From: Parcubacteria group bacterium GW2011_GWA2_48_9
Lineage (GTDB): Bacteria; Patescibacteriota; Patescibacteriia; UBA10025
Reading direction: 5' to 3'
Assembly: GCA_001003705.1 (NCBI GenBank)
Contig: LCPQ01000001.1
Coordinates: 58,008-122,007, forward strand
Length of the DNA: 64,000 nucleotides
In this document: one piece after another, positions 14,689 to 44,986 of the stretch
Layout: the number at the start of each line of letters is the position of its first letter
How positions within the stretch are numbered: the stretch's first letter is position 1
Translations under genes and position numbers: made by a program
Notes under the pieces: model-generated
Seen by the model: the letters and a program-made list of their open reading frames with translations, nothing else
The model's database searches: none
What the model was told of the DNA's origin: nothing

Positions 14689-15848
14689 TTACTCATCCTG
14701 AAGTACCAAGTCCTGTTCCGTGCCAGTTTTAAGCATCAAATCTGATCGGGGGGTAGATGTACTCACCGTTTTTCGGAAGCCGATTCGGTCAGGCGCGTGC
14801 ACAGGGGCAAGACGATGTAAAGTGCCCCAATGCACCGTTTCTTCCCCAAAGCGGTCATTCAAGACATCCATGGCGGCATAGACCGCGTCTTTTCGCGGCT
14901 GTGCCCAAAAACATCCTTGGTGCGATAACGTCCTCAGTCGAAAGACGCCGATGGCGAACGACTGCGCAGTATACGAACCAATCAGGCGTTCCAGGATACG
15001 CCAACCAAGCCGAAATATCTCGTCACCCCCCGTAAGAGAGCGGCTGAGAGTAACGTTTTTCCCATAGTAGCCACCTTCGCGAAGACCGACCGAAACGAAA
15101 AGCCCCTGTGCTTCCAGTCCGCGTGTACGCACATCCCTGCCAGTACGTTCCGCAAGCCGCATGAGTACTGACTGATAAAACCTCCGGTCAGTCGTACGGG
15201 TACGCAAAACATGTGAGTGCCCGATGGATTTCGGCTGTTCGACTGGCGTGGCCAGACGCGCCGGGGCGAGTTCGATACCATTGACATTCGCCCAAAGTTC
15301 ATGTCCTCTGATGCCGAGCAAACGCTTCAAGGCGTGCGGCTCGCACATCATGAGTTCGTCGAGCGTCCGAATGCCCAAAAGATGGAGACGGGCGGCAGTG
15401 CGATCAGCGATGCCCCACGCTTCTATCAGGTCGCGCCCCTTGAGATACCCCAAAAGGTTGTTGCGACTCAAAACCACTATCCCTCCTTTTTCACACGTGT
15501 CAGAACCGAATTTGGCCAGCCATCGAGTCGGCGCGATGCCTATGGAGTTCGTACATCCGAATACTGCCTGATGATAGAAAAGATTTTTTCAGTCGTCGAA
15601 CGGTACTTCGACGGATCGACTTCTACTAATATGATATCTGGGTATAAAAACTTTGCCTCGTCGGCACGACAACCGGTCTTAATGCCCACCGCCTTCGCTT
15701 CCTTCGATGAAGCGAGAATACACCCGTGCGGTGTCATGGTGGCGACAACTCCCAAGGGTTTCCCGCGTAGCGTAGGATTCGCCTGCTGCTCAACGCTGGC
15801 AAAGTACGAATTCATGTCCAGATGCATAATGATGCGCTTCGCTGGCAT
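14689..15848 (-). pseudogene. dinB: DNA polymerase IV (Y-family, DinB) disrupted by an internal deletion of about 130 nt plus a frameshift
   Basis: ORF 15540..15848 encodes DinB residues about 1–100 (…HLDMNSYFASVEQ…). ORF 14689..15477 and its upstream extension encode residues about 145–360 (…GIAPTRWLAKFGSD…YLKGRDLIEAWGIADRTAARL…). The segment holding the catalytic SIDEAxLD motif is absent. Translating both frames across 15530-15590 shows the two halves abut in different frames. Confidence 0.6.
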
Positions 15849-15862
15849 ATATGACAGTATCG

Positions 15863-16111
15863 CTATTCAATTTGTATCTCACTCAATACCCATATCAGGC
15901 GCTCAGGGTCATACTCCAGTCCATACGTGTTTCCTCCGTCTGAAACGGCAAAACACCATACATAGCGGGAACCTACCCGTTTCCGATATACCAAGTTCAC
16001 CCTTTCCACATCATATCGCTTTCCTGCCCGTAAAAAGGCTAAAGGACGGACTTTCACGCCGTCAAAGTCCACAACCACCCGTATGGGCTCCCGCATGCGT
16101 TCTACGAGCAT
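15863..16111 (-). CDS. Small hypothetical protein (82 aa) immediately upstream of dinB and co-oriented with it
   Basis: ORF with a 14-nt gap to dinB. No family recognised. Confidence 0.35.
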   Translation of the reverse strand: MLVERMREPIRVVVDFDGVKVRPLAFLRAGKRYDVERVNLVYRKRVGSRYVWCFAVSDGGNTYGLEYDPERLIWVLSEIQIE

Positions 16112-16299
16112 ATAATGCGTCTGAGAGGGTCCTTATTTATGGGTAATCCCCTTCTAAACCCTCTGCATTCATTATACCGAAGAAAAACCGAACATGCAAG
16201 CCCCACGTGACGCTCGTCCTGAAGCTACGCGATAGTGAAGCAGAAGGACCTCATTGAGCGACGCTGGCCAGATAACACCTTCTGTCCTAGCGGGAGCAC

Positions 16300-20796: not shown

Positions 20797-21375
20797 TTAT
20801 TGAGTTCTTACCGAAAATCGAATATCTTCGACTCGGTGTAAATTTCTTTTTGCGTCGTCAAACTTCTGTCGCAAATAGCCAGTAAGATTGCAACGAAGAA
20901 GTTCTTCGACAACATGTTCAACAACAGCATGTACGGTGTCTACACGTGCCTTATCGCCTTGTGTCGCAGCGGCAACTGATAATCTCACTAATTCACCAGT
21001 AACATCGGCGAGTGCGCCGATAGTTTCATCATACTCGGGCTCAAATGGTGTGGTGATCTCAATAGTCCCTTTGGTAACAAATGTATAATACATCAGTGCT
21101 TCAAGGTACTCTTCCATAGCTGCACGAATTGAACCTTCATATCGTAGCTTAGACTCTCGCTTCCACATGGAACGCAGTTTTTTCAAATCTCGTTCCGCCT
21201 CACGAATTTCCCTACGCGCTTCTTTGACATTGTCACGATGCAGCGAAAAAATTGCACGTTTCGAGTGTTGAAGCGCGCCTTGGGAGTACGCAAACGATTT
21301 TGAACGTGACTGACTGAAGGCTTGGGCAGCTGATAGTAGCGATCGAAAAAAGCGTGATTCAGACATTGTCTTCAT
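20797..21375 (-). CDS. Translin-like helical protein (tentative)
   Basis: 192-aa all-helical protein. The C-terminal half (…EEYLEALMYYTF…YDETIGALADVTGELVRLSV…) resembles the translin (E)Y…GLxDLTGELxR signature. Recognised by eye only. Confidence 0.45.
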   Translation of the reverse strand: MKTMSESRFFRSLLSAAQAFSQSRSKSFAYSQGALQHSKRAIFSLHRDNVKEARREIREAERDLKKLRSMWKRESKLRYEGSIRAAMEEYLEALMYYTFVTKGTIEITTPFEPEYDETIGALADVTGELVRLSVAAATQGDKARVDTVHAVVEHVVEELLRCNLTGYLRQKFDDAKRNLHRVEDIRFSVRTQ

Positions 21376-29949: not shown

Positions 29950-31332
29950 ATGAAGGCTTTTATTAAAAATATTATAGCTTGCTCCTTAGCTCTCGTACTT
30001 CTGGCACCGTCTGCTTCAGAAGCAATTTTTAATCCAAACTTTATACTAGGAGACCGTGATCTCGTTGATAGTACTTCCATGTCTGTCGATCGTGTTCAAA
30101 GCTTCCTACAATCGCAAGGGAGCGGTCTTGCATCATACGTTACAGACGCACCAGGAGGATTGCGGAAAACAGCTGCTCAAGTGATCTATGAAGCTGGTCG
30201 TTATTGGGGCATCAACCAACGTTACTTGATGGTGCGAATGCAAGTCGAACAAAGTTTAGTGACCGATAGCACTCCGAGCGAGCGGCAGTTAAACTGGGCG
30301 ACAGGGTACGCTGTCTGTGATTCGTGTTCGACAAGCGACCCCGCAATACAGCAATACCGTGGATTTTTTAACCAAGTCAACTGGGCCGCGAGAAGAATTC
30401 GAGAAAGATACCTTCCTGACCTCGCACAAAACGGGGTCACTTTCACCGGCTGGGGTCCTGGCAAAACGAAAAAGACGGGCGACGGATACTTCGTTACCCC
30501 CGAAAATAATGCGACATCGGTTATGTATACGTACACTCCCTATGTGTATAATGCAAATTACAATGTATGGCGTTTTTGGAACACTTGGTTTATCCGCCAT
30601 TATCCGGACGGTTCACTTCTGCAAGATAGCGCTTCTGGAGGAATCTGGAAAATTGAAAATGGGAAGCGACGCCCATTCCAATCACGGTCCGCTTTCTTCT
30701 CACGATATGATGCAAACCAAGCTATACCTGTTTCAAAGACTGACTTAGAGGCTTATACTATTGGCGCCCCTATAAAATTTCCAAACTATGCACTCGTGCT
30801 TTCCTCGAACGGCAAAGTATATTTGCTTGACGGGGATTCTAAACGGTGGATAGTCTCGCCTGAAGTTTTTAGGGCTATAGGGTTTAATCCGGAAGAAATT
30901 ATTACTGTATCAGACAGCGACTTGGCAACATATACCAATGGCGAACCAGTTTCTTTACAGAGCGCATATCCTTCGGGGGTATTGTTTCAATCGTTGCAAA
31001 CCGGCGGAATTTCATTTATTAAAGATGGTGTACGACACTCCGTGTGGTCACGGGAAATCCTTAATTCGCAATTCAAAAACCGCTCTGTGGCAACCGTCAA
31101 CGATGAAGTCATACAGCGATTTGCAAAGGGCGACCCGATTCTTTTCCGTGACAGCGAACTGGTCACTTCACCAGGCAACCGAAGCGTATTCTTTATCTCA
31201 AACGGCATAAAACGACCTATCGCATCTAAGGAAGCGTTTGACGCATTGGGCTTTCGGTGGGAAAATATTATCAGGACGTCGGACAAAGCTTTAGAAATCC
31301 ACCCGACAGGTTCACAAATCAAGCTCGAATAA
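29950..31332 (+). CDS. Secreted protein with four tandem repeats of about 50 aa
   Basis: Signal peptide MKAFIKNIIACSLALVLLAPSASEA. The C-terminal half holds four repeats of the pattern KRxIxSxExFxxxGFxxxxIxxVSDxxLxxYxxGxPI. Confidence 0.5.
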   Translation: MKAFIKNIIACSLALVLLAPSASEAIFNPNFILGDRDLVDSTSMSVDRVQSFLQSQGSGLASYVTDAPGGLRKTAAQVIYEAGRYWGINQRYLMVRMQVEQSLVTDSTPSERQLNWATGYAVCDSCSTSDPAIQQYRGFFNQVNWAARRIRERYLPDLAQNGVTFTGWGPGKTKKTGDGYFVTPENNATSVMYTYTPYVYNANYNVWRFWNTWFIRHYPDGSLLQDSASGGIWKIENGKRRPFQSRSAFFSRYDANQAIPVSKTDLEAYTIGAPIKFPNYALVLSSNGKVYLLDGDSKRWIVSPEVFRAIGFNPEEIITVSDSDLATYTNGEPVSLQSAYPSGVLFQSLQTGGISFIKDGVRHSVWSREILNSQFKNRSVATVNDEVIQRFAKGDPILFRDSELVTSPGNRSVFFISNGIKRPIASKEAFDALGFRWENIIRTSDKALEIHPTGSQIKLE

Positions 31333-31337
31333 ACCCT

Positions 31338-32135
31338 ATGCTCGTATTCGCCGCAATTACTCCACATCCTCCAATAGTCATTCCAACGATTGGCAAGGAT
31401 AACATGAAGTTTGTAACAAAGACGGTAAATGCCTACCGAGAGCTTGGGGAAGATATGTACGCAGCCCGGCCTGACACGATTATCGTGATTTCACCCCATG
31501 GCCCAATGTTACAGAATGCCTTCGCAATAAACCTCATGCCGCGTTTCGGGGCAAACTTTGAGGAATTTGGCGATCTGGTCACCTGGTTTACTATCCCCGG
31601 AGATGTCGGCTTCACCCACCAATTGAAGGAACATATTGAGACCCGTTACCCCGTCGTTCTTATGTCACAGGAAAAACTCGACCACGGTGTCGGTGTTCCC
31701 CTTTACTTCCTGACACAGAACCTTAACCGCAACAATGTTAAACTTATTCCGATGTCCTTCTCGCTGCTCGATTATGAAAGCCACTTCGAATTCGGGCGTG
31801 CGCTCCAAGAAGAAATTATCAACGATAATCGTCGTATTGCAGTAGTGGCCTCCGGCGACCTTTCGCATAAATTAACTGAGCACTCACCCGCAGGATATAA
31901 CCCGAAGGCAAAGGAATTCGACGAACACCTTATCCAACTCATAAAAAAGAATGACGTAGCAGGAATCCTCCACCTGAACCGCGAACTCGTAGAGGAGGCC
32001 GCTGAATGCGGACTGAGATCAATTATTATCCTCCTGGGTATATTGAATAGCATGCGCGTGAAGCCGAATATTATGAGTTACGAAGCCCCGTTTGGTGTCG
32101 GCTATCTTACTGCGTCATTCACATTAGGAAATTAG
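31338..32135 (+). CDS. Class III extradiol dioxygenase / MEMO1-like (LigB superfamily) protein
   Basis: …AAITPHPPIVIP…, …ISPHGP…, …LDHGVGVPL… and …ASGDLSHKL… resemble LigB/MEMO1-family metal-binding motifs. The start was moved to the internal ATG at 31338. Confidence 0.6.
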   Translation: MLVFAAITPHPPIVIPTIGKDNMKFVTKTVNAYRELGEDMYAARPDTIIVISPHGPMLQNAFAINLMPRFGANFEEFGDLVTWFTIPGDVGFTHQLKEHIETRYPVVLMSQEKLDHGVGVPLYFLTQNLNRNNVKLIPMSFSLLDYESHFEFGRALQEEIINDNRRIAVVASGDLSHKLTEHSPAGYNPKAKEFDEHLIQLIKKNDVAGILHLNRELVEEAAECGLRSIIILLGILNSMRVKPNIMSYEAPFGVGYLTASFTLGN

Positions 32136-32146
32136 ACTTTTTTTCG

Positions 32147-32902
32147 ATGCGTGTTATACCGATCCGAACTCCCCTCATCAAGCCGGGTGAGGATGTGATT
32201 GACGTGCTTCTTGTACATTTAAAGCACATGCGCGTACATAATGGCGATGTGGTAAGCATATCTTCAAAAGTCGCAGGCCTCGCGGAAGGAAGGATTGTAA
32301 AGCTTCATTCGATACTTCCACGTAGTCACGCCCGTTTAATGGCACGTACATACCACCTACTCCCCTCATTTGCACAAGTGGTTATCGACCATGCCGACAG
32401 GGTTATTGGCGGAGTGCCTGGAACGCTTATTACTCTAAAAAATGGCATTATTGTACCAAATGCCGGTGCAGATCAGTCAAACGCTCCACCGGGGTTTGCG
32501 ATTTTGTGGCCGAAATCGCCAGAAGTACTTGCTGAAAAGATACGAAAAGCCATAAGAAAAGAACTTCACAGAAATATCGGCGTGATAATCACCGACTCTG
32601 GATTCATTCCTGGGAGGCGAGGCACTGTCGGTATCGCCATTTCAGTGGCGGGCTTCGATCCTGTTCGTGATGAACGTGGAAAACCGGACCTCTTCAGACG
32701 GAAAATGCGATTGACAAGGGTTAATGTGGCTGATAGTCTGGCAACAGCCGCTCAAGTAGTGAGCGGTGAACGAAATGAATGTATCCCGTTCGTACTTATA
32801 AAAGAAAGTTACGTTCCTCTCACGTCAATACCGGCAAAAAAACTTACCCGCCGCTTGATAATGAGAAGATCGCAGGACCTTTTTAAGCACCATCTGACAT
32901 AA
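32147..32902 (+). CDS. CofE-like protein (F420-0:gamma-glutamyl ligase family fold)
   Basis: …IPIRTPLIKPGEDVIDVL… and …ITDSGFIPGRRGTVGIAISVAGF… are typical of CofE/FbiB-N family proteins. Confidence 0.7.
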   Translation: MRVIPIRTPLIKPGEDVIDVLLVHLKHMRVHNGDVVSISSKVAGLAEGRIVKLHSILPRSHARLMARTYHLLPSFAQVVIDHADRVIGGVPGTLITLKNGIIVPNAGADQSNAPPGFAILWPKSPEVLAEKIRKAIRKELHRNIGVIITDSGFIPGRRGTVGIAISVAGFDPVRDERGKPDLFRRKMRLTRVNVADSLATAAQVVSGERNECIPFVLIKESYVPLTSIPAKKLTRRLIMRRSQDLFKHHLT

Positions 32903-32910
32903 TTCATAAT

Positions 32911-33597
32911 ATGAAAAAAACGCTTGTCATTGTCCTCGGCCTCACTATCTCATTATTCGCACTTCAAATCCCGTTTTCGGTGCTTATTGGAGGTTCAAAT
33001 CAGCAATTTTCAATGTTCGATTTTATTGCCCCGTCTCTAGGCGGATTTTTTGGTTCAATCATAGGTGCAATAACCATCGTGGCGGCAAAAGCATTCAATA
33101 CGTTCGCGCATGAAGAACCATTTAACATGATCAATGTTATACGACTATTTCCACTTGCATTTGGCGCATTGTACTTTGGGTTACGAAAATTCCCTTTTGT
33201 AAAGGCATTTATTCCACTACTTTGTATGGTGCTTTTTAACCTGCATCCAGAGGGTCGCGGTGCATGGTATTACTCTCTCTACTGGCTAATTCCAGTTGTG
33301 GCACTTCTCACACCACACAGCCTCATCTTCAAGAGCCTTGGTGCAACGTTTACAGCCCACGCAGTCGGTGGCGTTGCTTTCTTGTATGCATTTAACCTGC
33401 CCGCAGAGGTCTGGATTGCGCTCATACCAATCGTGTTTATCGAACGCATGCTCTTTACCGCAGGGATCGCCGCATCTTATCTCGCCACGAACTCAGTTCT
33501 CGCATTTATAAGCTCGCATCCTAAATTTGCATTTATGGCTCGACTAGTCGATGTCCAGTATGTGTTCTCCAGGTCATTTCTGAAGAAATTCGTCTGA
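32911..33597 (+). CDS. Polytopic membrane protein (hypothetical; ECF S-component-like size and topology)
   Basis: 228 aa with about 6 TM segments. It lies immediately downstream of the CofE-like gene. Confidence 0.4.
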   Translation: MKKTLVIVLGLTISLFALQIPFSVLIGGSNQQFSMFDFIAPSLGGFFGSIIGAITIVAAKAFNTFAHEEPFNMINVIRLFPLAFGALYFGLRKFPFVKAFIPLLCMVLFNLHPEGRGAWYYSLYWLIPVVALLTPHSLIFKSLGATFTAHAVGGVAFLYAFNLPAEVWIALIPIVFIERMLFTAGIAASYLATNSVLAFISSHPKFAFMARLVDVQYVFSRSFLKKFV

Positions 33598-33729
33598 ATT
33601 TCTTCATCGAATTGCATCCTAGATCAGCGAACCATATATAGTTACTCTGATATCTCGCCCAATTGACACTCTCATTCATGAATGTGGCGGCTTTTTCTAG
33701 CTACAAATACTTGATACAATGAATGAGCT

Positions 33730-35565
33730 ATGTACGCAGAAGTAATACTTTCTCGACGTTTTCCGAAATCAATGGGGGTTTTTGACTACAAAGTTCCTGA
33801 GTCGCTTTTGGGTCGTATCAGAGTGGGACACCTTGTATCAATCCCTTTCAGAAAAAGTGTGGCCGAAGGGGTTGTTGTCCGTCTGAAAGAAAACCCCTTT
33901 CCCGGAGTTTCAATAAAGACACTGACAGGGATCACTGATGATCCTCCACTGTTAACTGACCAGCAACTCCAGTTCGCTCAGTGGATGTCCGACTACTATG
34001 CCGTATCAATCGGCACGGTCATTAAATCAATGATTCCCGGCATCCCGAAGCGTACCCGCGTTCGAGCAATTATGGAATGGCCAAAAATAACGCCAACGAC
34101 ACCAACAAACATTACGCGCAGCGAACAGCCGGTTTTGGTGTGGATCGAAAGCGTAGGGTTGCGACAAGACTGGTATGCGACTTTTTTTAGTACGTTAAAA
34201 AAACAAACATTGGTTGTCCTCCCTGAGGTTGCAAAAGTCCATTTTTTCCTAGCTCTCGTACCCCCAGATCTTAGGAAACATACCGTGGTAGTTCATAGCA
34301 AACTCGGAATAGCAGAATTCTACGATGCGTGGAAAAAAATACGAAACGGGTCAGCGCGGCTCATCGTTGGAACTAAAATGTCGGTGTTCTTGCCATTTTC
34401 TTCGCTTGATAGCATCCTCGTTGATGATGAGCACGACGAAGACCATAAGCAATATGATCAAAATCCACGTTTTGACGTGCGAACGTCGGTTCTAACGCTT
34501 AAAAAACTTTTTTCGTGTGGACTATGGTTTGTTTCGCCAGCTCCGACAGTCGAGCGATACTTTCAGGCCGCTGCGGGACATATGACACTTCAAAAAGAGA
34601 CAAGCAAAGTACGTCCAGCTATCTCAATAGTTGACATGAAGGAGGAGCGGGTAAAAAAGAATTTTTCACTTATATCTGACGCGCTTCATGACACATTGCA
34701 AGCTTCCTTAAGCAAAAAAAGCAGGGTTTTTCTTTTTCTTAATAGACGCGGTGAAGCTTCAACCGTCGTATGTAAAGAATGCGGTCATACGGTCTTTTGT
34801 CCGGATTGTAAGCGCCCTCTCGCCATACATACTCAAAAGCGGCAAACGGAGCTAGTATGCCATGCGTGCAACGCGCGCCATGAACTCATACGATGCGGAC
34901 ACTGCTCGTCAGTATCCTTCAAATACATCGGCGGAGGTACACAGCGCCTAGAAAGAGAGGTTATAAATGCTTTTCCGGGCACAGCGGTATCACGTCTAGA
35001 TGCGGATACTACGCTATATAACGCTACGGCAGAGATTGTCATCGGTACCGAACTCGCGAGAAAAAGGATTGTGCTCACAGAATTCCTGTGTATCGGCGTT
35101 ATTGCGGCGGATATCATGTTTCAAAGACCCGATTTTCGCTCCTCGGAGAAAGCGTTTCAATCGCTTACTGAACTTCTCACAGAATCGTCTCATAGCGCAT
35201 CAATTATCATCCAAAGCTACTCTCCACATCATCCGGCCATCACCCATCTACTATCAAACGACCTGGAAGCTTTTTACAGAAATGAACTTACTGAAAGAAA
35301 GGAACACTTATACCCCCCGTATTCGCAAATTGTAAAACTCATGAATACACATTACAACGACCCCGAAGCATCAATACGACTTATTCAAAAGTTTAAGGCA
35401 GATAAGCTCTCCGCCTATGAACTCCCCCACCAGGGAGGTCAACATAACAGACCTACTGTCATTCTCAAGCTTCCGCTTGAAACCACCATGCGACAATGGA
35501 AGGTCATTGTGAGCCGCATACCTGACACCTGGCTGATAGACCGTGACCCCGTCTCATTGTCGTAG
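33730..35565 (+). CDS. priA: Primosomal protein N' (PriA)-like protein with a degenerate Walker A motif
   Basis: It has a 3'-DNA-binding N-terminal domain, a DExH box (…VDDEHDEDHKQ…) and a Cys4-type zinc ribbon (CKECGHTVFCPDCK…CHACN…CGHC). Where GxTGSGKT(E) is expected the sequence reads …WIESVGLRQDWYAT…. Confidence 0.8.
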   Translation: MYAEVILSRRFPKSMGVFDYKVPESLLGRIRVGHLVSIPFRKSVAEGVVVRLKENPFPGVSIKTLTGITDDPPLLTDQQLQFAQWMSDYYAVSIGTVIKSMIPGIPKRTRVRAIMEWPKITPTTPTNITRSEQPVLVWIESVGLRQDWYATFFSTLKKQTLVVLPEVAKVHFFLALVPPDLRKHTVVVHSKLGIAEFYDAWKKIRNGSARLIVGTKMSVFLPFSSLDSILVDDEHDEDHKQYDQNPRFDVRTSVLTLKKLFSCGLWFVSPAPTVERYFQAAAGHMTLQKETSKVRPAISIVDMKEERVKKNFSLISDALHDTLQASLSKKSRVFLFLNRRGEASTVVCKECGHTVFCPDCKRPLAIHTQKRQTELVCHACNARHELIRCGHCSSVSFKYIGGGTQRLEREVINAFPGTAVSRLDADTTLYNATAEIVIGTELARKRIVLTEFLCIGVIAADIMFQRPDFRSSEKAFQSLTELLTESSHSASIIIQSYSPHHPAITHLLSNDLEAFYRNELTERKEHLYPPYSQIVKLMNTHYNDPEASIRLIQKFKADKLSAYELPHQGGQHNRPTVILKLPLETTMRQWKVIVSRIPDTWLIDRDPVSLS

Positions 35566-35607
35566 CTACCGCTAGACGAAAGAATATCCTCACGGTACTA
35601 TGCGCCT

Positions 35608-36903
35608 ATGAGTGTACTCACAGTAACTTACCACCCGAACAGCCTCCTCCGAGCAACATTACTACCCGTGGAACTCGGCGCGCTTCAATCACCAGGAATA
35701 CAAAAAATGATCGATACAATGGTTGAGACGATGTTCGCCAAGAACGGTATTGGTATTGCAGCAAACCAAGTTGGTAAGAATCACCAGATTGCTATCCTTA
35801 ATACGGCGGAAGGTCCGGTGATAATTATTAATCCTCGGATTACGAAACTATCAATCCTGAAGGAGAACGGCGAAGAAGGCTGTCTCTCTGTTCCTGGCCT
35901 TTTCGGCATGGTAAGAAGACACCGGTCACTTACGTTGAGTGCATATGACCGCCACGGAAAATCATTTACCATGAAGGCGCGGGGCCTACTGGCTAGAGTC
36001 ATACAGCATGAAGTTGACCATCTCAATGGTATTCTCTTTCAATCAATTGACGTGGTCGGCGTTTTGACGCAACCAGACAAACCAGCCGGCAGGGGGTACC
36101 ATCTAATTGAGTCCCCTATTAAGAGACTTGCGCGGCGATATAAACTTCCTATCTACCAGCCCTTAACAGTGACCGATCCGTCTAGTATCGAGTTACTATC
36201 GGGACTCTCTCTCGACGTTGTCGTACTCGCTGCGTATGGTGAGTTGATCCCTAAAAAACTCTTGTCATTGCCTCGATGTGGCTGGTTGAACGTGCATGCA
36301 TCACTTTTGCCGAGACTGCGTGGCGCATCCCCCATCCAGCACGCACTTTTGGAGGGATACACAGAAACCGGCATTACCCTGATGAAAATGGTGGAAAAAC
36401 TTGACGCGGGCCCGGTGATCGCCAAATCTGTAATACTAGTTGATAAAGATGATACAGCCGGCTCACTCCATGACAAACTCGCCTTGCTAGGCGCGAAGTG
36501 CATTGAGGAGTATCTCATTGCTTACCTTACTGATCGGCGGCCAATAACCGAACAAGACCATGAGCAAGCGACATATTGCAAAAAAATTCGCAGTAGTGAC
36601 GCCCGTATCGATTGGCACGCATCTGCCGATGAGATTAATAGGCTTGTTCGCGCAATGAATCCAGCGCCTGGCGCCTTTACCCAATTTAATGGTAATCAAG
36701 TTAAGATTTTTGCCATTGAAACTTTTCAACATGAAGTTATTGGGCCTCCAGGAACTGTGGGAGGTGTTGGCGCGCATTTAGTGGTGTCGTCAGGTACTAG
36801 ACCATTACATATTCTTTCGCTTCAACTTCCAGGCAAGAAAAAAGTGACCGGTGCGGAATTCATCAACGGCCATAGGAATATACTCCCTTTTTCATTCGTA
36901 TAG
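35608..36903 (+). CDS. Peptide deformylase – methionyl-tRNA formyltransferase fusion protein
   Basis: The N-terminal about 150 aa carry all three Def motifs (GIGIAANQ, EEGCLSVPG, QHEVDHLNG). The Fmt core follows directly, starting at …DVVGVLTQPDKPAGRG… with …NVHASLLPRLRGASPIQ…. The Def C-terminal helix and the first roughly 27 Fmt residues are missing. Confidence 0.85.
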   Translation: MSVLTVTYHPNSLLRATLLPVELGALQSPGIQKMIDTMVETMFAKNGIGIAANQVGKNHQIAILNTAEGPVIIINPRITKLSILKENGEEGCLSVPGLFGMVRRHRSLTLSAYDRHGKSFTMKARGLLARVIQHEVDHLNGILFQSIDVVGVLTQPDKPAGRGYHLIESPIKRLARRYKLPIYQPLTVTDPSSIELLSGLSLDVVVLAAYGELIPKKLLSLPRCGWLNVHASLLPRLRGASPIQHALLEGYTETGITLMKMVEKLDAGPVIAKSVILVDKDDTAGSLHDKLALLGAKCIEEYLIAYLTDRRPITEQDHEQATYCKKIRSSDARIDWHASADEINRLVRAMNPAPGAFTQFNGNQVKIFAIETFQHEVIGPPGTVGGVGAHLVVSSGTRPLHILSLQLPGKKKVTGAEFINGHRNILPFSFV

Positions 36904-43154: not shown

Positions 43155-44004
43155 TCAATATTTTTCTACTTTGATGTGCATCCACTTCTTTCCCTGCGGA
43201 AGTGCCCGTAGAATCAGCCCATGCTTGGCGCCAATTTGTTGAACAACTGACGCCGAATTGATCGATGCCAGTCTGAGCGCGTAGTCAATGTCGCCCGGAC
43301 GTTTAATCAAACCTGCAACAAACCCGGAGCCGTATGCATCACCAGCACCCGTCGTATCGACTGCCTTCACCGGGTTGATCACTACCTTTCTCACTGTCAT
43401 GCCATCGCATACCCATGAACCTTTTTTACCTTCAGTGATCACGGCAATGCCGTCACATACGCGATCCATTCCTCTCACAAAGTGCAACGTGGGTTCTATA
43501 CTTCCTTGCCATAGACAGAGCTTTCTTTAACAGCGGAATGTTCCCTGCTAGCGAAGAGATATAAAACCACCGTGTGCGGGCTTTCGACCAAGAAACGTCG
43601 TTAGGCTGAAGTGTATGACTGACACCACGGTATACGAGAATAGTGCGTTCACCGCTAGAGGTCAAAAAAATAGTCGAATACCCAGTCCGGCCTTCCGGAT
43701 CTGTAATGACAAAAGGGAGATATATGCCATACGACATTAAGAGACGTTTAACTGACTCGCCAGCGGGATCTAAGCCGACTCTCGTTACGACAGCTGTACG
43801 CAGGCCTTGGCGTGAAAAGGTTACAGCAGTATTCGTCGCTCCGCCCCCAACTTCAAAGAGCACATCGTCGAGCTCAACTTTTGTCCCAAACGCGAAACAC
43901 TCCGCCTGCCCAGTAATAAAGCGTTTATCGCGGATAATGCGGAATCGTTTGCTTACCAGGTAGACATCCTGAGTTGCCTGGCCGATAGAAATTACGTCGT
44001 ACAT
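43155..44004 (-). pseudogene. PfkB-family carbohydrate kinase (ribokinase-like) split by a frameshift, possibly with a small internal deletion
   Basis: ORF 43453..44004 carries the N-terminal GG motif (…FEVGGGATNTAV…). ORF 43155..43487 carries the C-terminal DTTGAGDAY motif. The two are in different frames, overlapping by about 35 nt. Confidence 0.55.
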
Positions 44005-44005
44005 A

Positions 44006-44986
44006 TTAGCGTTTCCTTCTCAATACAGTATACACCGCTTTAGTGATGTCAGCAGCAGCAAGATGGTATTTTTTCATAAGCTCAGAAGGTTTTCCAGACT
44101 CACCAAAAGTATCCCCTACTCCTATACGTTGAATTGGCACGGGTAGTGCCTCACTCAGGAGCTCCGCTACCGCAGCACCCATCCCTCCAGTAATTTGATG
44201 TTCTTCGGCAGTTACTATCGCACCTGTCTTCTTGGCAGAATGTATAATTGTTCGCCGATCAGCTGGTTTGATGGTGTGATTATTTACTACTTCCACGTGA
44301 ATTCCTTTTGTACGCAAGTTTTTGGCCACCATAAGCGCTTCATACACTAGCGCGCCGCAGGCTATGATAGTAACATCGGTTCCAGGATGATAGATTTCTG
44401 CCTTGCCGATCGCAAAGGGTGTTCTGGGCGTGGTAACCACCGGCACCGCTTCACGCCCCATGCGTATATACACCGGTCCTTTGACCTTCACAGCGGCCAA
44501 TACGGCCTTCTCGGCCTCTAGCGCGTCTACAGGAGCAATAACCGTCATGTTTGGTAGTACGCGCATTATTGCAATGTCTTCGAGTGCTTGATGCGTTGCA
44601 CCGTCAGGCCCCACTGAGATCCCCGCATGTGCCCCAATGATTTTTACATTAGCTTTACTGTAACAGATTGATACGCGAATTTGATCCCAATTCCTCCCTG
44701 GGGAGAAAACTGCATATGAAACAATAAACGGAATTTTTCCTGCTAGTGCAAGACCGGCACTGATTCCCGCCATATTTTGCTCGGCCACACCTATTTCGAA
44801 GAATCTTTCTGGGAACGAATTCCGAAATACGAGCGATCTTGTCGATTCAGTTAAATCGGCACACAAAACCACCACGTTCCGGTTTTTCTTTCCAGCCTTT
44901 ACAACGCCCGTACCGTACCCATCACGCATCGGCACCAATTTTACTCCCCGTGAAAATACACTTGGTGATAGATATAACTTATTCAT
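44006..44986 (-). CDS. tkt: Transketolase, C-terminal (pyrimidine-binding) subunit
   Basis: 326 aa with the Pyr and C-terminal transketolase domains (…GVAEQNMAGISAGLAL…). Confidence 0.85.
   Translation of the reverse strand: MNKLYLSPSVFSRGVKLVPMRDGYGTGVVKAGKKNRNVVVLCADLTESTRSLVFRNSFPERFFEIGVAEQNMAGISAGLALAGKIPFIVSYAVFSPGRNWDQIRVSICYSKANVKIIGAHAGISVGPDGATHQALEDIAIMRVLPNMTVIAPVDALEAEKAVLAAVKVKGPVYIRMGREAVPVVTTPRTPFAIGKAEIYHPGTDVTIIACGALVYEALMVAKNLRTKGIHVEVVNNHTIKPADRRTIIHSAKKTGAIVTAEEHQITGGMGAAVAELLSEALPVPIQRIGVGDTFGESGKPSELMKKYHLAAADITKAVYTVLRRKR

What the first reader, a model, noticed from the sequence alone, without database searches (positions are those of the whole stretch)
33730..35565. 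PriA-like primosomal protein whose Walker A P-loop is replaced (WIESVGLRQDWYAT) while DExH box and zinc ribbon are retained
Every other PriA landmark is present: the 3'-DNA-binding domain, the DEEHD-type motif II, the Cys4 zinc-binding region and the C-terminal domain. At the GxTGSGKT(E) position, however, there is no Gly-Lys-Thr. E. coli helicase-dead PriA (K230R) still assembles the primosome, so a naturally ATPase-dead PriA could remain functional as a restart scaffold. That would be an interesting minimal state.
Basis: partly seen in the sequence, partly recalled or inferred. Interest (0 to 1): 0.5.

Follow-up and report, generated by a model that had tools for sequence, protein, structure and literature searches.

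The report
Naturally ATPase-dead PriA in CPR bacteria
This gene is the genuine replication-restart protein PriA of a tiny uncultivated (Candidate Phyla Radiation) bacterium that has lost its whole ATP-burning helicase site but kept its DNA-fork-recognition parts, and the same loss is shared by a very large group of related bacteria, which extends a phenomenon shown experimentally only in Deinococcus.

Summary
ORF 33730-35565 (611 aa) is the orthologous priA of a Candidatus Kerfeldbacteria (Parcubacteria/Patescibacteria) genome. It has IESVGLRQDWY where PriA has GVTGSGKTEVY (K230->R145, T231->Q146). This is not a frameshift, mis-called start, pseudogene or sequencing error: no GKT exists in any frame, the gene is 100% nucleotide-identical in six independent assemblies, and related degenerate genes show dN/dS of 0.07-0.19. 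The winged-helix domain is absent, motifs Ia, III, V (apart from its conserved Gly-Thr) and VI (arginine fingers) are degenerate, and the DDEH box is not conserved even in the nearest relatives. The 3'-end-binding domain and its pocket residues, the aromatic-rich loop, motif IV, all eight zinc cysteines and the C-terminal domain are conserved. The AlphaFold model (pLDDT 90) superposes on PriA structures at TM 0.74-0.78. The loss is lineage-wide: 113 of the top 150 cluster representatives lack motifs I and VI, while some CPR lineages keep an intact short PriA. Best reading: an ATP-independent fork-recognition and replisome-reloading scaffold, a more extreme and far more widespread analogue of the Deinococcus radiodurans PriA pseudohelicase. 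It is a new variant of a known kind, of moderate interest.

The parts
33730..35565 (+). priA orthologue, 611 aa plus stop: degenerate 'pseudohelicase' PriA of Candidatus Kerfeldbacteria
   Evidence: ORF; TIGR00595 296.6 bits, above cutoff; PDB PriA E~4e-55; identical protein and DNA in 6 independent assemblies; names given by sources
33730..34044 (+). 3'-DNA-end binding domain (aa 1-105). Pocket residues D19/Y20 (= E. coli D17/Y18) and K63 (= K61) are retained
   Evidence: Pfam PF17764 E=9.5e-22, aa 14-103; Y20 98% and K63 89% conserved in the degenerate clade; residue roles from PMC5778457
34045..34131 (+). 29-aa linker (aa 106-134) in place of the winged-helix domain (E. coli residues ~109-181 are absent)
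   Evidence: Alignment gap of ~100 columns; 32 residues between the 3'BD and motif I versus 119 in E. coli; second-best structural match is the engineered E. coli delta-WH PriA, 6dcr
34132..34599 (+). RecA-like lobe 1 (aa 135-290), fold retained but catalytic motifs degenerate
   Evidence: AF2 model with alternating strands and helices, pLDDT >90; Foldseek TM 0.74-0.78 to PriA
34144..34176 (+). Former motif I / Walker A: IESVGLRQDWY (aa 139-149); R145 = K230, Q146 = T231; Gly-rich loop lost
   Evidence: column conservation 0.21 in the degenerate clade versus 0.95 in canonical PriAs; the model starts the helix at V142
34219..34245 (+). Former motif Ia: LPEVAKVHF (canonical VPEIxLTPQ); only the Pro (P165) stays conserved
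   Evidence: conservation 0.38 versus 0.90, P165 97%
34423..34434 (+). Residual motif II: DDEH (canonical DEEH); catalytic Glu replaced by Asp; not conserved in relatives
   Evidence: DQEQ, DHEE, DSAS, ENES in relatives; conservation 0.55 versus 0.90
34441..34482 (+). Aromatic-rich loop region DHKQYDQNPRFDVR (aa 238-251), conserved. In E. coli this loop wedges into the fork junction
   Evidence: Conservation 0.66 versus 0.69; K240 90%, P246 99%, R247 91%; role in E. coli from PMC5175346 and PMC10175261
34531..34545 (+). Former motif III: VSPAP (canonical GSATP)
   Evidence: conservation 0.58 versus 0.93
34729..34752 (+). Motif IV FLFLNRRG, retained
   Evidence: N338 91%, G341 98%
34765..34917 (+). 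Cysteine-rich region (aa 346-396) with two Cys4 zinc sites: C348, C351, C357, C360, C377, C380, C389, C392
   Evidence: All eight Cys invariant or 99-100% in both clades; weak Pfam Zn_ribbon_PriA hit, E=0.057
35038..35070 (+). Former motif V: VIGTELARKRI (canonical LIGTQMxAKGL); only G439 and T440 are kept
   Evidence: T440 100%, motif conservation 0.48 versus 0.87
35170..35193 (+). Former motif VI: ELLTESSH (canonical QVAGRAGR); both arginine fingers lost
   Evidence: conservation 0.23 versus 0.89
35230..35562 (+). C-terminal domain (aa 501-611), retained, including FYxxExxxRxxxxYPPF and the terminal WxIDRDP motif
   Evidence: R523 100%, P529/P530 99-100%, D604 94%, P607 96%
35608..36903 (+). 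Downstream def and fmt, the conserved priA-def-fmt synteny. They are fused in this window by a 121-bp deletion after position 36037
   Evidence: Pfam; synteny in 56 of 80 loci; separate def and fmt in four other assemblies of the same population

Best explanation
The gene is the chromosomal orthologue of priA in a Candidatus Kerfeldbacteria (CPR) genome. It has evolved into a pseudohelicase. The two RecA-like lobes survive as a structural platform, but every ATP-binding or ATP-hydrolysis element is gone: the P-loop, the catalytic Glu of motif II, motif III, the Q/AKG part of motif V, and the arginine fingers of motif VI. The winged-helix domain has been deleted.

The parts that recognise an abandoned fork and organise later steps remain under purifying selection. 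These are the 3'BD pocket for the nascent leading-strand 3' end, the aromatic-rich loop that wedges at the fork junction, the DNA-contacting remnants of motifs Ia, IV and V, the two-zinc CRR, and the CTD.

Proposed mechanism (inferred): the protein binds forks or D-loops whose lagging-strand template is already single-stranded, without using ATP. It then recruits the replicative helicase DnaB, either directly, as reported for D. radiodurans PriA, or through a lineage-specific adaptor or loader.

Shown here: homology, orthologous locus, loss of motifs, fold retention, selection, lineage-wide distribution. Inferred: lack of ATPase and helicase activity, fork binding, the role in restart, and the partner.
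For: Homology and orthology:
- TIGR00595 scores above its cutoff and PDB PriA chains match at E~4e-55.
- priA-def-fmt synteny is shared with Clostridia and Chloroflexi canonical PriAs in 56 of 80 loci.

ATP site destroyed:
- Motif table against E. coli.
- Per-column conservation falls from 0.95 to 0.21 (motif I), 0.89 to 0.23 (VI), 0.90 to 0.38 (Ia) and 0.87 to 0.48 (V). Motifs I, Ia and VI fall below the clade's mean of 0.43. The ARL (0.69 to 0.66), motif IV (0.88 to 0.71) and the CRR cysteines (~1.0) are kept.
- Some clade members even have deletions in the former P-loop, e.g. P0010, L056, L060.

Not an artefact:
- No GKT in any frame.
- Zero nucleotide differences across 6 independent assemblies.

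Selection: dN/dS is 0.07-0.19 for degenerate-clade pairs versus 0.06-0.08 for motif-intact short PriAs.

Fold: AF2 pLDDT 90, pTM 0.89. Best PDB matches are PriA 8fak, 6dcr (delta-WH) and 4nl4 at TM 0.74-0.78; the next family (Mfd) is at 0.35.

Lineage-wide: 113 of the top 150 50%-identity cluster representatives lack motifs I and VI. The window protein sits in a purely degenerate clade of 94 in a tree built without the motif columns.

Precedent for function without ATPase:
- E. coli K230R/K230A PriA supports restart and DnaB loading (PMC5778457, PMC10175261).
- D. radiodurans PriA has no ATPase or helicase activity but binds forks and DnaB (PMC4504706).
Against: No biochemical data exist for any CPR PriA, so loss of ATPase is inferred from sequence only. 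I could not inspect the model's coordinates to examine the pocket. I could not search the rest of the genome for a second, canonical PriA, for another helicase that might substitute, or for DnaB, DciA or SSB partners; none lies in the 64-kb window.

In E. coli the helicase-independent route depends on PriB and DnaT, which are not expected outside some Proteobacteria, so the downstream pathway here is unknown. In E. coli, forks with a duplex lagging strand need PriA unwinding before the CRR switch (PMC13594977); how a dead PriA would handle such forks is unexplained. The dS values are near saturation, so the dN/dS figures are approximate.
Confidence: 0.72

Rival explanations
1. Pseudogene, sequencing or assembly error, mis-called start or frameshift that hides a canonical GKT.
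For: The window does contain one assembly-type anomaly nearby, the 121-bp deletion fusing def and fmt.
Against: The 611-aa ORF is intact and aligns full-length to PriA. No GK[ST] is present in any frame of the gene. The DNA is identical in six independent assemblies. The same motif loss is seen in more than 100 divergent cluster representatives of similar length. dN/dS is 0.07-0.19.
Confidence: 0.01
2. The protein still binds nucleotide, or hydrolyses it slowly, through a non-canonical site, and uses it as a conformational switch rather than as a motor. For example R145 and D232/D233 could form a degenerate pocket, or it could use the proposed second weak nucleotide site of PriA.
For: The window protein keeps a basic residue (R145) at the Lys position and an acidic DDEH box. 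[quoted passage not shown]
Against: R145 and DDEH are not conserved even in relatives at 47-49% identity (IHSNMKRFEWY/DQEQ; YQAENHRSAWY/DHEE). The Gly-rich loop, the motif VI arginines and motif III are all absent, and several clade members have deletions in the loop. Motif I and VI columns are less conserved than the protein average. K230R alone abolishes ATPase in E. coli.
Confidence: 0.05
3. Neofunctionalisation. The protein keeps PriA's DNA-structure recognition but no longer works in replisome reloading. It could act as a fork or D-loop protection or capping factor, a recombination regulator, or a structural partner of another helicase.
For: Loss of both the motor and the WH domain is more radical than in Deinococcus. 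CPR genomes are highly reduced and lack many canonical partners (general knowledge). The degenerate clade is slightly more divergent overall, with mean conservation 0.43 versus 0.55.
Against: The conserved surfaces are exactly those that E. coli PriA uses for fork recognition and for the CRR switch. The ancestral priA-def-fmt locus is retained. Motif-intact and degenerate short PriAs are interleaved within the same radiation, with no sign of a second PriA at the loci examined. Helicase-dead PriA suffices for restart in E. coli.
Confidence: 0.15
4. The degenerate gene is a redundant paralogue, and a separate canonical PriA elsewhere in the genome performs helicase-dependent restart.
For: Not excluded.
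Against: The degenerate gene occupies the ancestral priA-def-fmt locus. CPR genomes are ~1 Mb and rarely keep paralogues (general knowledge). In the genome-contig scan no genome contributed both a degenerate and a canonical locus among the 80 returned, which is weak evidence because one representative genome per species and only the best 80 loci are shown. Strong purifying selection on the degenerate copy.
Confidence: 0.05

Closest known systems
Deinococcus radiodurans / Deinococcus-Thermus PriA pseudohelicase (Lopper, Boone & Morrow 2015, PMC4504706)
   Same: [quoted passage not shown] The protein is retained in the genome and presumed to function in restart without ATPase or helicase activity. 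No PriB or DnaT is expected.
   Different: The Deinococcus case is described as degenerate in motifs I and II. Here motifs I, Ia, II, III, V and VI are all degenerate and the WH domain is deleted. The CPR clade is far larger, with at least 113 clusters at 50% identity among the top 150. At the former motif positions the residues are not conserved within the clade at all. For D. radiodurans, activity loss, fork binding and DnaB binding are experimentally shown; nothing is shown for CPR. Whether the two losses are independent was not tested here.
E. coli PriA K230R (priA300) / K230A / K230D engineered ATPase-dead variants
   Same: The same position is affected (K230 = R145). These variants show that PriA without ATPase, helicase or translocase activity still assembles the primosome and supports DnaB loading and near-wild-type growth (PMC5778457, PMC10175261).
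   Different: They are single-residue laboratory mutants in an otherwise intact helicase. Their function depends on the PriB/DnaT pathway, and the helicase is still required for the PriC pathway, Mu transposition and other processes. The CPR protein is a product of long-term evolution with multi-motif decay.
E. coli PriA delta-WH engineered protein (PDB 6DCR)
   Same: The domain composition is the same as the CPR protein: 3'BD, helicase lobes, CRR and CTD, with no WH. It is the second-best structural match (TM 0.74).
   Different: It is an engineered deletion that retains all catalytic motifs. I could not retrieve its functional characterisation from the held papers.
Motif-intact short PriAs of other CPR lineages (loci labelled Saccharibacteria and Doudnabacteria: L009-L011, L013, L014, L016)
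   Same: Same short WH-less architecture (~650-665 aa, 41-47-aa linker), same radiation, same priA-def-fmt locus.
   Different: They keep GVTGSGKT (GPTASGKT in L014), DEEH (DEAH in L014), SATP, GTQMxxxGW and GRTGR, so they are presumably active helicases. This shows that WH loss preceded, and is separable from, ATPase loss.
Canonical PriA DNA helicase (E. coli / K. pneumoniae; PDB 4NL4, 6DGD, 8FAK)
   Same: Overall fold (TM 0.72-0.78), 3'BD pocket, aromatic-rich loop, CRR with two zinc sites, and CTD.
   Different: It has a WH domain and all SF2 motifs, is an active 3'-5' helicase, and partners with PriB, DnaT and DnaC.

Membership tests
PriA (primosomal protein N') orthologous group | Significant full-length sequence homology to PriA family models | tested here: met
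   TIGR00595 296.6 bits, cutoff 230.35; phmmer to PDB PriA E~4e-55. The stricter PRK05580 and PRK14873 equivalog cutoffs are NOT reached (382.7 versus 813, etc.).
PriA (primosomal protein N') orthologous group | N-terminal 3'-DNA-end binding domain with pocket residues (E. coli D17, Y18, K61) | tested here: met
   PF17764 E=9.5e-22; D19, Y20 and K63 present; Y20 98% and K63 89% conserved in the clade.
PriA (primosomal protein N') orthologous group | Cysteine-rich region with 2 x Cys4 zinc sites inserted in helicase lobe 2 | tested here: met
   C348/351/357/360/377/380/389/392 are invariant. The Pfam Zn_ribbon_PriA hit is sub-threshold (13.8 versus 26 bits).
PriA (primosomal protein N') orthologous group | Overall PriA fold: 3'BD + two RecA-like lobes + CRR + S10-like CTD | tested here: met
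   AF2 pLDDT 90 / pTM 0.89; Foldseek TM 0.74-0.78 to 8fak, 6dcr and 4nl4, versus no more than 0.40 for any other family.
PriA (primosomal protein N') orthologous group | Winged-helix domain between the 3'BD and helicase lobe 1 | tested here: not met
   A 29-aa linker replaces it. The WH domain is also absent from motif-intact CPR PriAs, so it is not universal to the orthologous group.
PriA (primosomal protein N') orthologous group | Conserved genomic position (priA-def-fmt) | tested here: met
   def and fmt lie immediately downstream in the window and in 56 of 80 related loci across phyla.
PriA DNA helicase (functional class: SF2 ATP-dependent 3'-5' helicase) | Motif I / Walker A GxGKT | tested here: not met
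   IESVGLRQDWY; no GK[ST] in any frame.
PriA DNA helicase (functional class: SF2 ATP-dependent 3'-5' helicase) | Motif II DE(E/x)H with catalytic Glu | tested here: not met
   DDEH: the catalytic Glu is replaced by Asp, and the box is not conserved in relatives.
PriA DNA helicase (functional class: SF2 ATP-dependent 3'-5' helicase) | Motif VI arginine fingers (QxxGRAGR) and motifs III and V | tested here: not met
   ELLTESSH; SPAP; GTELARKR; clade conservation 0.23, 0.58 and 0.48.
PriA DNA helicase (functional class: SF2 ATP-dependent 3'-5' helicase) | DNA-dependent ATPase and helicase activity | not testable with these tools
   Requires purified protein.
PriA pseudohelicase (as defined for Deinococcus-Thermus, PMC4504706) | PriA orthologue with departure from the consensus of motifs I and II, including loss of the Walker A lysine | tested here: met
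   K230->R145 and T231->Q146; DEEH->DDEH. This is the same K->R change described for Deinococcus-Thermus.
PriA pseudohelicase (as defined for Deinococcus-Thermus, PMC4504706) | No ATP hydrolysis or duplex unwinding, but retained ssDNA and fork binding | not testable with these tools
   Only indirect evidence: conservation of DNA-binding elements and decay of ATP-binding elements.
PriA pseudohelicase (as defined for Deinococcus-Thermus, PMC4504706) | Physical interaction with the cognate DnaB | not tested
   The cognate DnaB is not in the window and no complex prediction tool was available.
PriA pseudohelicase (as defined for Deinococcus-Thermus, PMC4504706) | Common descent with the Deinococcus-Thermus pseudohelicases (a single loss) | not tested
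Independent loss seems likely, because motif-intact short PriAs occur inside the CPR.

The most novel reading that the evidence does not exclude
Across a large part of the Candidate Phyla Radiation, PriA has been stripped to an ATP-independent, WH-less fork sensor. That would mean these ultra-small bacteria restart, or perhaps even routinely load, their replicative helicase by a minimal pathway that needs no PriA motor. The conserved CRR and CTD surfaces would then contact DnaB or a so-far-unidentified CPR-specific adaptor directly. It would be a natural 'minimal primosome', and the repeated independent losses (CPR, Deinococcus-Thermus, a Zixibacteria genome) would show that the helicase activity of PriA is evolutionarily dispensable under certain lifestyles.
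Probability: 0.3. Interest if true: 0.65.

Novelty: new variant of a known kind. Interest (0 to 1): 0.5.

Why it matters
[quoted passage not shown] This analysis shows a second clade of natural PriA pseudohelicases that is much larger and more radically degenerate. It covers much of the Parcubacteria/ABY1-type CPR, with at least 113 clusters at 50% identity among the first 150 examined. Motif-intact short PriAs occur in sister CPR lineages.

That gives a natural experiment for an old question: what is the PriA motor for, and which PriA surfaces are sufficient for replisome reloading? The residues that survive total motor decay are the 3'BD pocket, the aromatic-rich loop, motif IV, the Gly-Thr of motif V, the CRR and the CTD. 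Together they define a minimal 'restart core' that can be tested by mutagenesis in E. coli.

There is also a practical point for annotation. These proteins are labelled 'primosomal protein N' / replication restart helicase' although they almost certainly cannot be helicases.

Tried and rejected
- Hidden Walker A in another frame, or a frameshift at homopolymers: rejected.
- Sequencing or assembly error: rejected, with 0 mismatches in six assemblies.
- 'DExH box retained' as a functional feature: rejected, because it is not conserved in the nearest relatives.
- def-fmt fusion as a biological feature of the locus: rejected as probably artefactual. The 121-bp deletion is seen only in the window, and another assembly has an N-gap at the same place.
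- Promoter and terminator scan around the gene: counts equal the shuffled expectation, so it is uninformative.
- SSB C-terminal-tail pocket residues of PriA: I could not find the residue list in the held papers, so the pocket was not evaluated.
- Literature on CPR/Patescibacteria PriA: four searches found nothing relevant. One Nature 2023 paper mentions priA only as a neighbour of a novel family in phylum UBP6.
- Actinobacterial PriAs: the PRK14873 models align across the whole N-terminal half of the query, and I recall a UniProt caution that mycobacterial PriA lacks detectable helicase domains. I could not retrieve such sequences, so this remains a recollection and not a result.
- dN/dS for the window gene against its nearest genome (L002): dS is saturated, so there is no estimate. 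Closer pairs inside the clade were used instead.
- The neighbour-joining tree of very divergent sequences gives at least 8 state changes. I do not trust the exact number, only that the window lies in a large, purely degenerate clade.
Full report
WHAT IS THERE. It is clearly a PriA homologue. Pfam finds the PriA 3'-DNA-binding domain at aa 14-103 (E=9.5e-22). NCBIfam TIGR00595 'replication restart helicase PriA' scores 296.6 bits against a cutoff of 230, although none of the stricter PRK05580 or PRK14873 equivalog cutoffs is reached. All solved PriA structures match at E~4e-55. In every one of these alignments the large matched block starts at query residue ~157, just after the place where Walker A should be.

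THE OBSERVATION. I aligned the protein with E. coli PriA (taken from NC_000913), two Firmicutes PriAs and ten relatives, and later with 80 genomic loci. Both alignments place IESVGLRQDWY (aa 139-149) opposite GVTGSGKTEVY. R145 aligns with K230 and Q146 with T231, and the glycine-rich loop is gone. No [AG]xxxxGK[ST], and no GK[ST] at all, occurs in the protein or in any alternative frame of the gene. The only GK[ST] strings in 33000-36000 lie outside it.

The exact 611-aa protein is recorded on 19 contigs. In six independent assemblies the gene has zero nucleotide differences from the window: three NCBI MAGs (GCA_001004025.1, GCA_001818285.1, GCA_003527115.1) and three ENA metagenome assemblies. 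So it is not a sequencing error. The sources name the organism Candidatus Kerfeldbacteria / Parcubacteria group bacterium GW2011_GWA2_48_9, which belongs to the Patescibacteria (CPR).

'Every other PriA landmark is present' does not hold.
- The winged-helix domain is missing. Only 32 residues lie between E. coli-equivalent position 105 and motif I, versus 119 in E. coli.
- Motif VI (QVAGRAGR, the arginine fingers) is ELLTESSH.
- Motif V (GTQMLAKG) is GTELARKR.
- Motif III (SATP) is SPAP.
- Motif Ia (VPEIGLTPQ) is LPEVAKVHF.
- The 'retained DExH' is DDEH. The catalytic Glu is replaced by Asp, and the nearest relatives (47-49% identity) have DQEQ or DHEE there. It is therefore a remnant and not a maintained motif.

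What is really retained is listed below, with conservation in the degenerate clade:
- the 3'BD with its 3'-end pocket residues (D19/Y20 = E. coli D17/Y18, K63 = K61; Y20 98% and K63 89% conserved);
- the aromatic-rich loop DHKQYDQNPRFDVR;
- motif IV FLFLNRRG;
- the Gly-Thr of motif V (T440 100%);
- all eight CRR cysteines (99-100%);
- the C-terminal domain, including an FYxxExxxRxxxxYPPF block and the terminal WxIDRDP motif.

IS IT LINEAGE-WIDE? Yes. The closest database relatives (29-49% identity, 590-650 aa, labelled Patescibacteria or Falkowbacteria) mostly carry only the 3'BD Pfam domain and lack PF00270 and PF00271 (P0008 is an exception, with a PF00270 hit), whereas canonical PriAs in the same hit list carry both.

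A scan of one genome per GTDB species returned 80 loci. In the motif table, the short WH-less PriAs of CPR genomes fall into two classes.
- Degenerate in all ATP motifs: the window, L002-L008, L012, L015, L017, L020, L021, L025, L026, L030, L056, L060, L067 and L072. Labelled genomes here include Falkowbacteria, Parcubacteria and Portnoybacteria.
- Fully intact (GVTGSGKT, DEEH, SATP, GTQM..KGW, GRTGR; L014 has GPTASGKT and DEAH): L009-L011, L013, L014 and L016, labelled Saccharibacteria and Doudnabacteria.

A Gracilibacteria locus (L039) is intermediate. A Zixibacteria PriA that still has its WH-length N-terminal region is also degenerate (L040).

I then ran a profile of the degenerate group against 1.84 billion cluster representatives. 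Of the best 150 (clusters at 50% identity), 104 lack motifs I, II and VI, 9 lack I and VI but keep a DE[EAQ][HQY]-like box, and 37 are intact. In a neighbour-joining tree built after removing the motif columns, the window protein lies in a purely degenerate clade of 94 sequences. Parsimony infers a canonical root and about 8 state changes. That number is soft because the sequences are very divergent.

IS IT STILL A WORKING GENE? Four lines of evidence say yes.
1. Locus. def and fmt follow priA immediately in the window and in 56 of 80 related loci, including Clostridia and Chloroflexi genomes with canonical PriA. This is therefore the ancestral priA locus and not a stray paralogue.
2. Selective decay. 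Within 114 degenerate versus 39 intact sequences, column conservation (1 minus normalised entropy) changes as follows.

| Region | Intact PriAs | Degenerate PriAs |
|---|---|---|
| Motif I | 0.95 | 0.21 |
| Motif VI | 0.89 | 0.23 |
| Motif Ia | 0.90 | 0.38 |
| Motif V | 0.87 | 0.48 |
| Motif II | 0.90 | 0.55 |
| Motif III | 0.93 | 0.58 |
| Aromatic-rich loop | 0.69 | 0.66 |
| Motif IV | 0.88 | 0.71 |
| CRR | 0.56 | 0.47 |

The values for motifs I, Ia and VI are below the degenerate clade's mean of 0.43. So selection has been relaxed specifically on the ATP site.
3. Codon-level selection. dN/dS is 0.17 (L007/L008), 0.19 (L006/L007) and 0.07 (L003/L012) in degenerate pairs, versus 0.06-0.08 in intact short PriAs. 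dS is near saturation, so these values are approximate.
4. Fold. The AlphaFold2 model has mean pLDDT 90 and pTM 0.89. Its best PDB matches are PriA structures: 8fak_H at TM 0.78, the engineered E. coli delta-WH PriA 6dcr_A at 0.74, and 4nl4 at 0.76. The next family (Mfd and other SF2 proteins) is at no more than 0.40. In the model the helix after strand 1 already starts at V142, so the former P-loop is modelled as the helix N-terminus. This is consistent with loss of the phosphate-binding loop, but it is only a model, and I could not inspect the coordinates.

MECHANISM (inferred). In SF2 helicases, motifs I, II and VI bind and hydrolyse ATP and motif III couples hydrolysis to movement. Motifs Ia and IV and the Thr of motif V contact the nucleic-acid backbone (established knowledge). 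The pattern seen here, with the ATP elements erased and the DNA-contact elements kept, is what one expects if the two lobes are retained as a passive DNA-binding platform.

In E. coli:
- the 3'BD captures the nascent leading-strand 3' end;
- the HD1 aromatic-rich loop wedges into the fork junction;
- the CRR, HD2 and CTD close around lagging-strand ssDNA and expose the docking site for the next factor (PMC10175261);
- K230R/K230A PriA lacks ATPase, helicase and translocase activity yet supports restart in vivo and DnaB loading in vitro (PMC5778457, PMC10175261).

D. radiodurans PriA, which carries the same K->R change, has no ATPase or helicase activity but binds ssDNA, forks and its cognate DnaB (PMC4504706).

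I therefore propose that the Kerfeldbacteria protein is an ATP-independent fork or D-loop sensor that recruits DnaB directly or through a lineage-specific adaptor. It would be limited to substrates whose lagging-strand template is already single-stranded, or it would depend on another helicase to clear that strand. In E. coli a duplex lagging strand must first be unwound before the CRR switch occurs (PMC13594977).

The steps that are shown are homology, locus, motif loss, fold and selection. The steps that are inferred are lack of ATPase, fork binding, the partner, and the role in restart.

RIVALS. The pseudogene/artefact explanation is refuted. A cryptic nucleotide-binding switch is unlikely, because R145 and DDEH are not conserved even among close relatives and some clade members delete the loop. 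Neofunctionalisation away from restart cannot be excluded (about 0.15). A canonical PriA paralogue elsewhere in the genome could not be checked, because only the 64-kb window was available. The window holds ordinary housekeeping genes (MreC, PBP2, GreA, LysRS, SerRS, Alr, Ddl, GluRS, XseA and others) and no DnaB, SSB, loader or second PriA.

COMPARISON WITH WHAT IS KNOWN, AND NOVELTY. The kind of thing, a natural PriA pseudohelicase, is known from Deinococcus-Thermus (PMC4504706). The 2018 review still lists Deinococcus as the single exception to conservation of the helicase. Four full-text searches found no paper that describes PriA degeneration in CPR/Patescibacteria. From memory, and not verified here, UniProt flags some actinobacterial PriAs as lacking detectable helicase domains, so the concept may be somewhat broader than the literature I could read.

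The CPR case differs from Deinococcus in degree, since all ATP motifs plus the WH domain are gone. It differs in scale, with well over a hundred 50%-identity clusters. And it differs in offering intact and degenerate forms side by side within one radiation. I rate it a new variant of a known kind, of moderate interest (0.5). It is not surprising in principle to a replication-restart specialist. But it is a large and apparently unreported natural data set on which PriA surfaces suffice once the motor is gone.

SIDE OBSERVATION ON THE NEIGHBOUR. The single def-fmt ORF in the window (35608-36903) results from a 121-bp deletion after position 36037, flanked by a GTATTC direct repeat. Four other assemblies of the same population have separate, overlapping def (163 aa) and fmt (314 aa) genes there, and a fifth assembly has a run of Ns at exactly this spot. 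It is most likely an assembly or gap-closure artefact and has no bearing on priA.

Noticed in passing
window 35608-36903 (junction after 36037): def and fmt form one fused ORF in the window because 121 bp are missing relative to four other assemblies of the same population, where def (163 aa) and fmt (314 aa) are separate and overlap. The deletion is flanked by a GTATTC direct repeat, and assembly GCA_001818285.1 has a run of Ns at the same spot. It is probably an assembly or gap-closure artefact or a rare variant. It removes the def C-terminus and about 26 N-terminal residues of fmt.
   Followed up: yes
L009-L011, L013, L014, L016 versus L002-L008 etc.: Within the CPR, short WH-less PriAs exist in both a motif-intact form (labelled Saccharibacteria, Doudnabacteria) and a fully degenerate form. 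WH-domain loss therefore preceded ATPase loss and is separable from it.
   Followed up: partly
L040 6001-8202 (Zixibacteria MAG JAUWYR010000007.1); also L019, L022, L023, L049, L039: More PriAs with degenerate ATP motifs occur outside the main CPR clade. A Zixibacteria PriA of 838 aa with a full-length N-terminal region reads GDRTSEKT / DDEH / QMIEKAKR. A Gracilibacteria PriA is intermediate (GPPASGKT / EEEQ / GRTRR). This suggests repeated independent decay of the PriA motor.
   Followed up: no
L004, L017 (titles 'uncultured Gammaproteobacteria', binchicken assemblies); L023 ('WOR-3'); L049 ('Planctomycetia'): These records carry CPR-type short degenerate PriAs, and for L017 CPR-like priA-def-fmt synteny too. 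Their taxonomic titles are probably wrong.
   Followed up: no
window 20797-21375 (-): A 192-aa protein matches the Translin family (PF01997, E=3.5e-18). This family is mainly eukaryotic and archaeal, so it is unusual in a bacterial genome.
   Followed up: no
window 14689-15477 (-), with an overlapping + strand ORF at 15217-16146 and a GC rise to 0.49 at 14-16 kb: The 262-aa ORF matches only the C-terminal 'little finger' domain of Y-family polymerases (IMS_C, E=1.8e-9). The catalytic N-terminal part is not in the same ORF, so this may be a split, truncated or mis-started dinB-like gene.
   Followed up: no
window 43453-44004 (-) and 44006-44986 (-): A 183-aa PfkB-family ORF covers only profile positions 21-126 of 302, so it may be a fragment. 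Next to it is a 326-aa ORF holding only the pyrimidine-binding and C-terminal transketolase domains, i.e. a split transketolase.
   Followed up: no
window 32147-32902 (+) and 31257-32135 (+), directly upstream of priA: An F420-0:gamma-glutamyl ligase (CofE)-family protein (E=6.8e-59) and a LigB/Memo-like protein lie in the same orientation as priA. A CofE-like enzyme is unexpected in a metabolically reduced CPR genome.
   Followed up: no
window 33598-33729: The 132-nt region upstream of priA shows no Shine-Dalgarno-like GGAGG. A TACAAT hexamer lies about 10 nt before the ATG, so a very short leader or leaderless transcript is possible. The consensus scan found nothing above the shuffled expectation.
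   Followed up: partly
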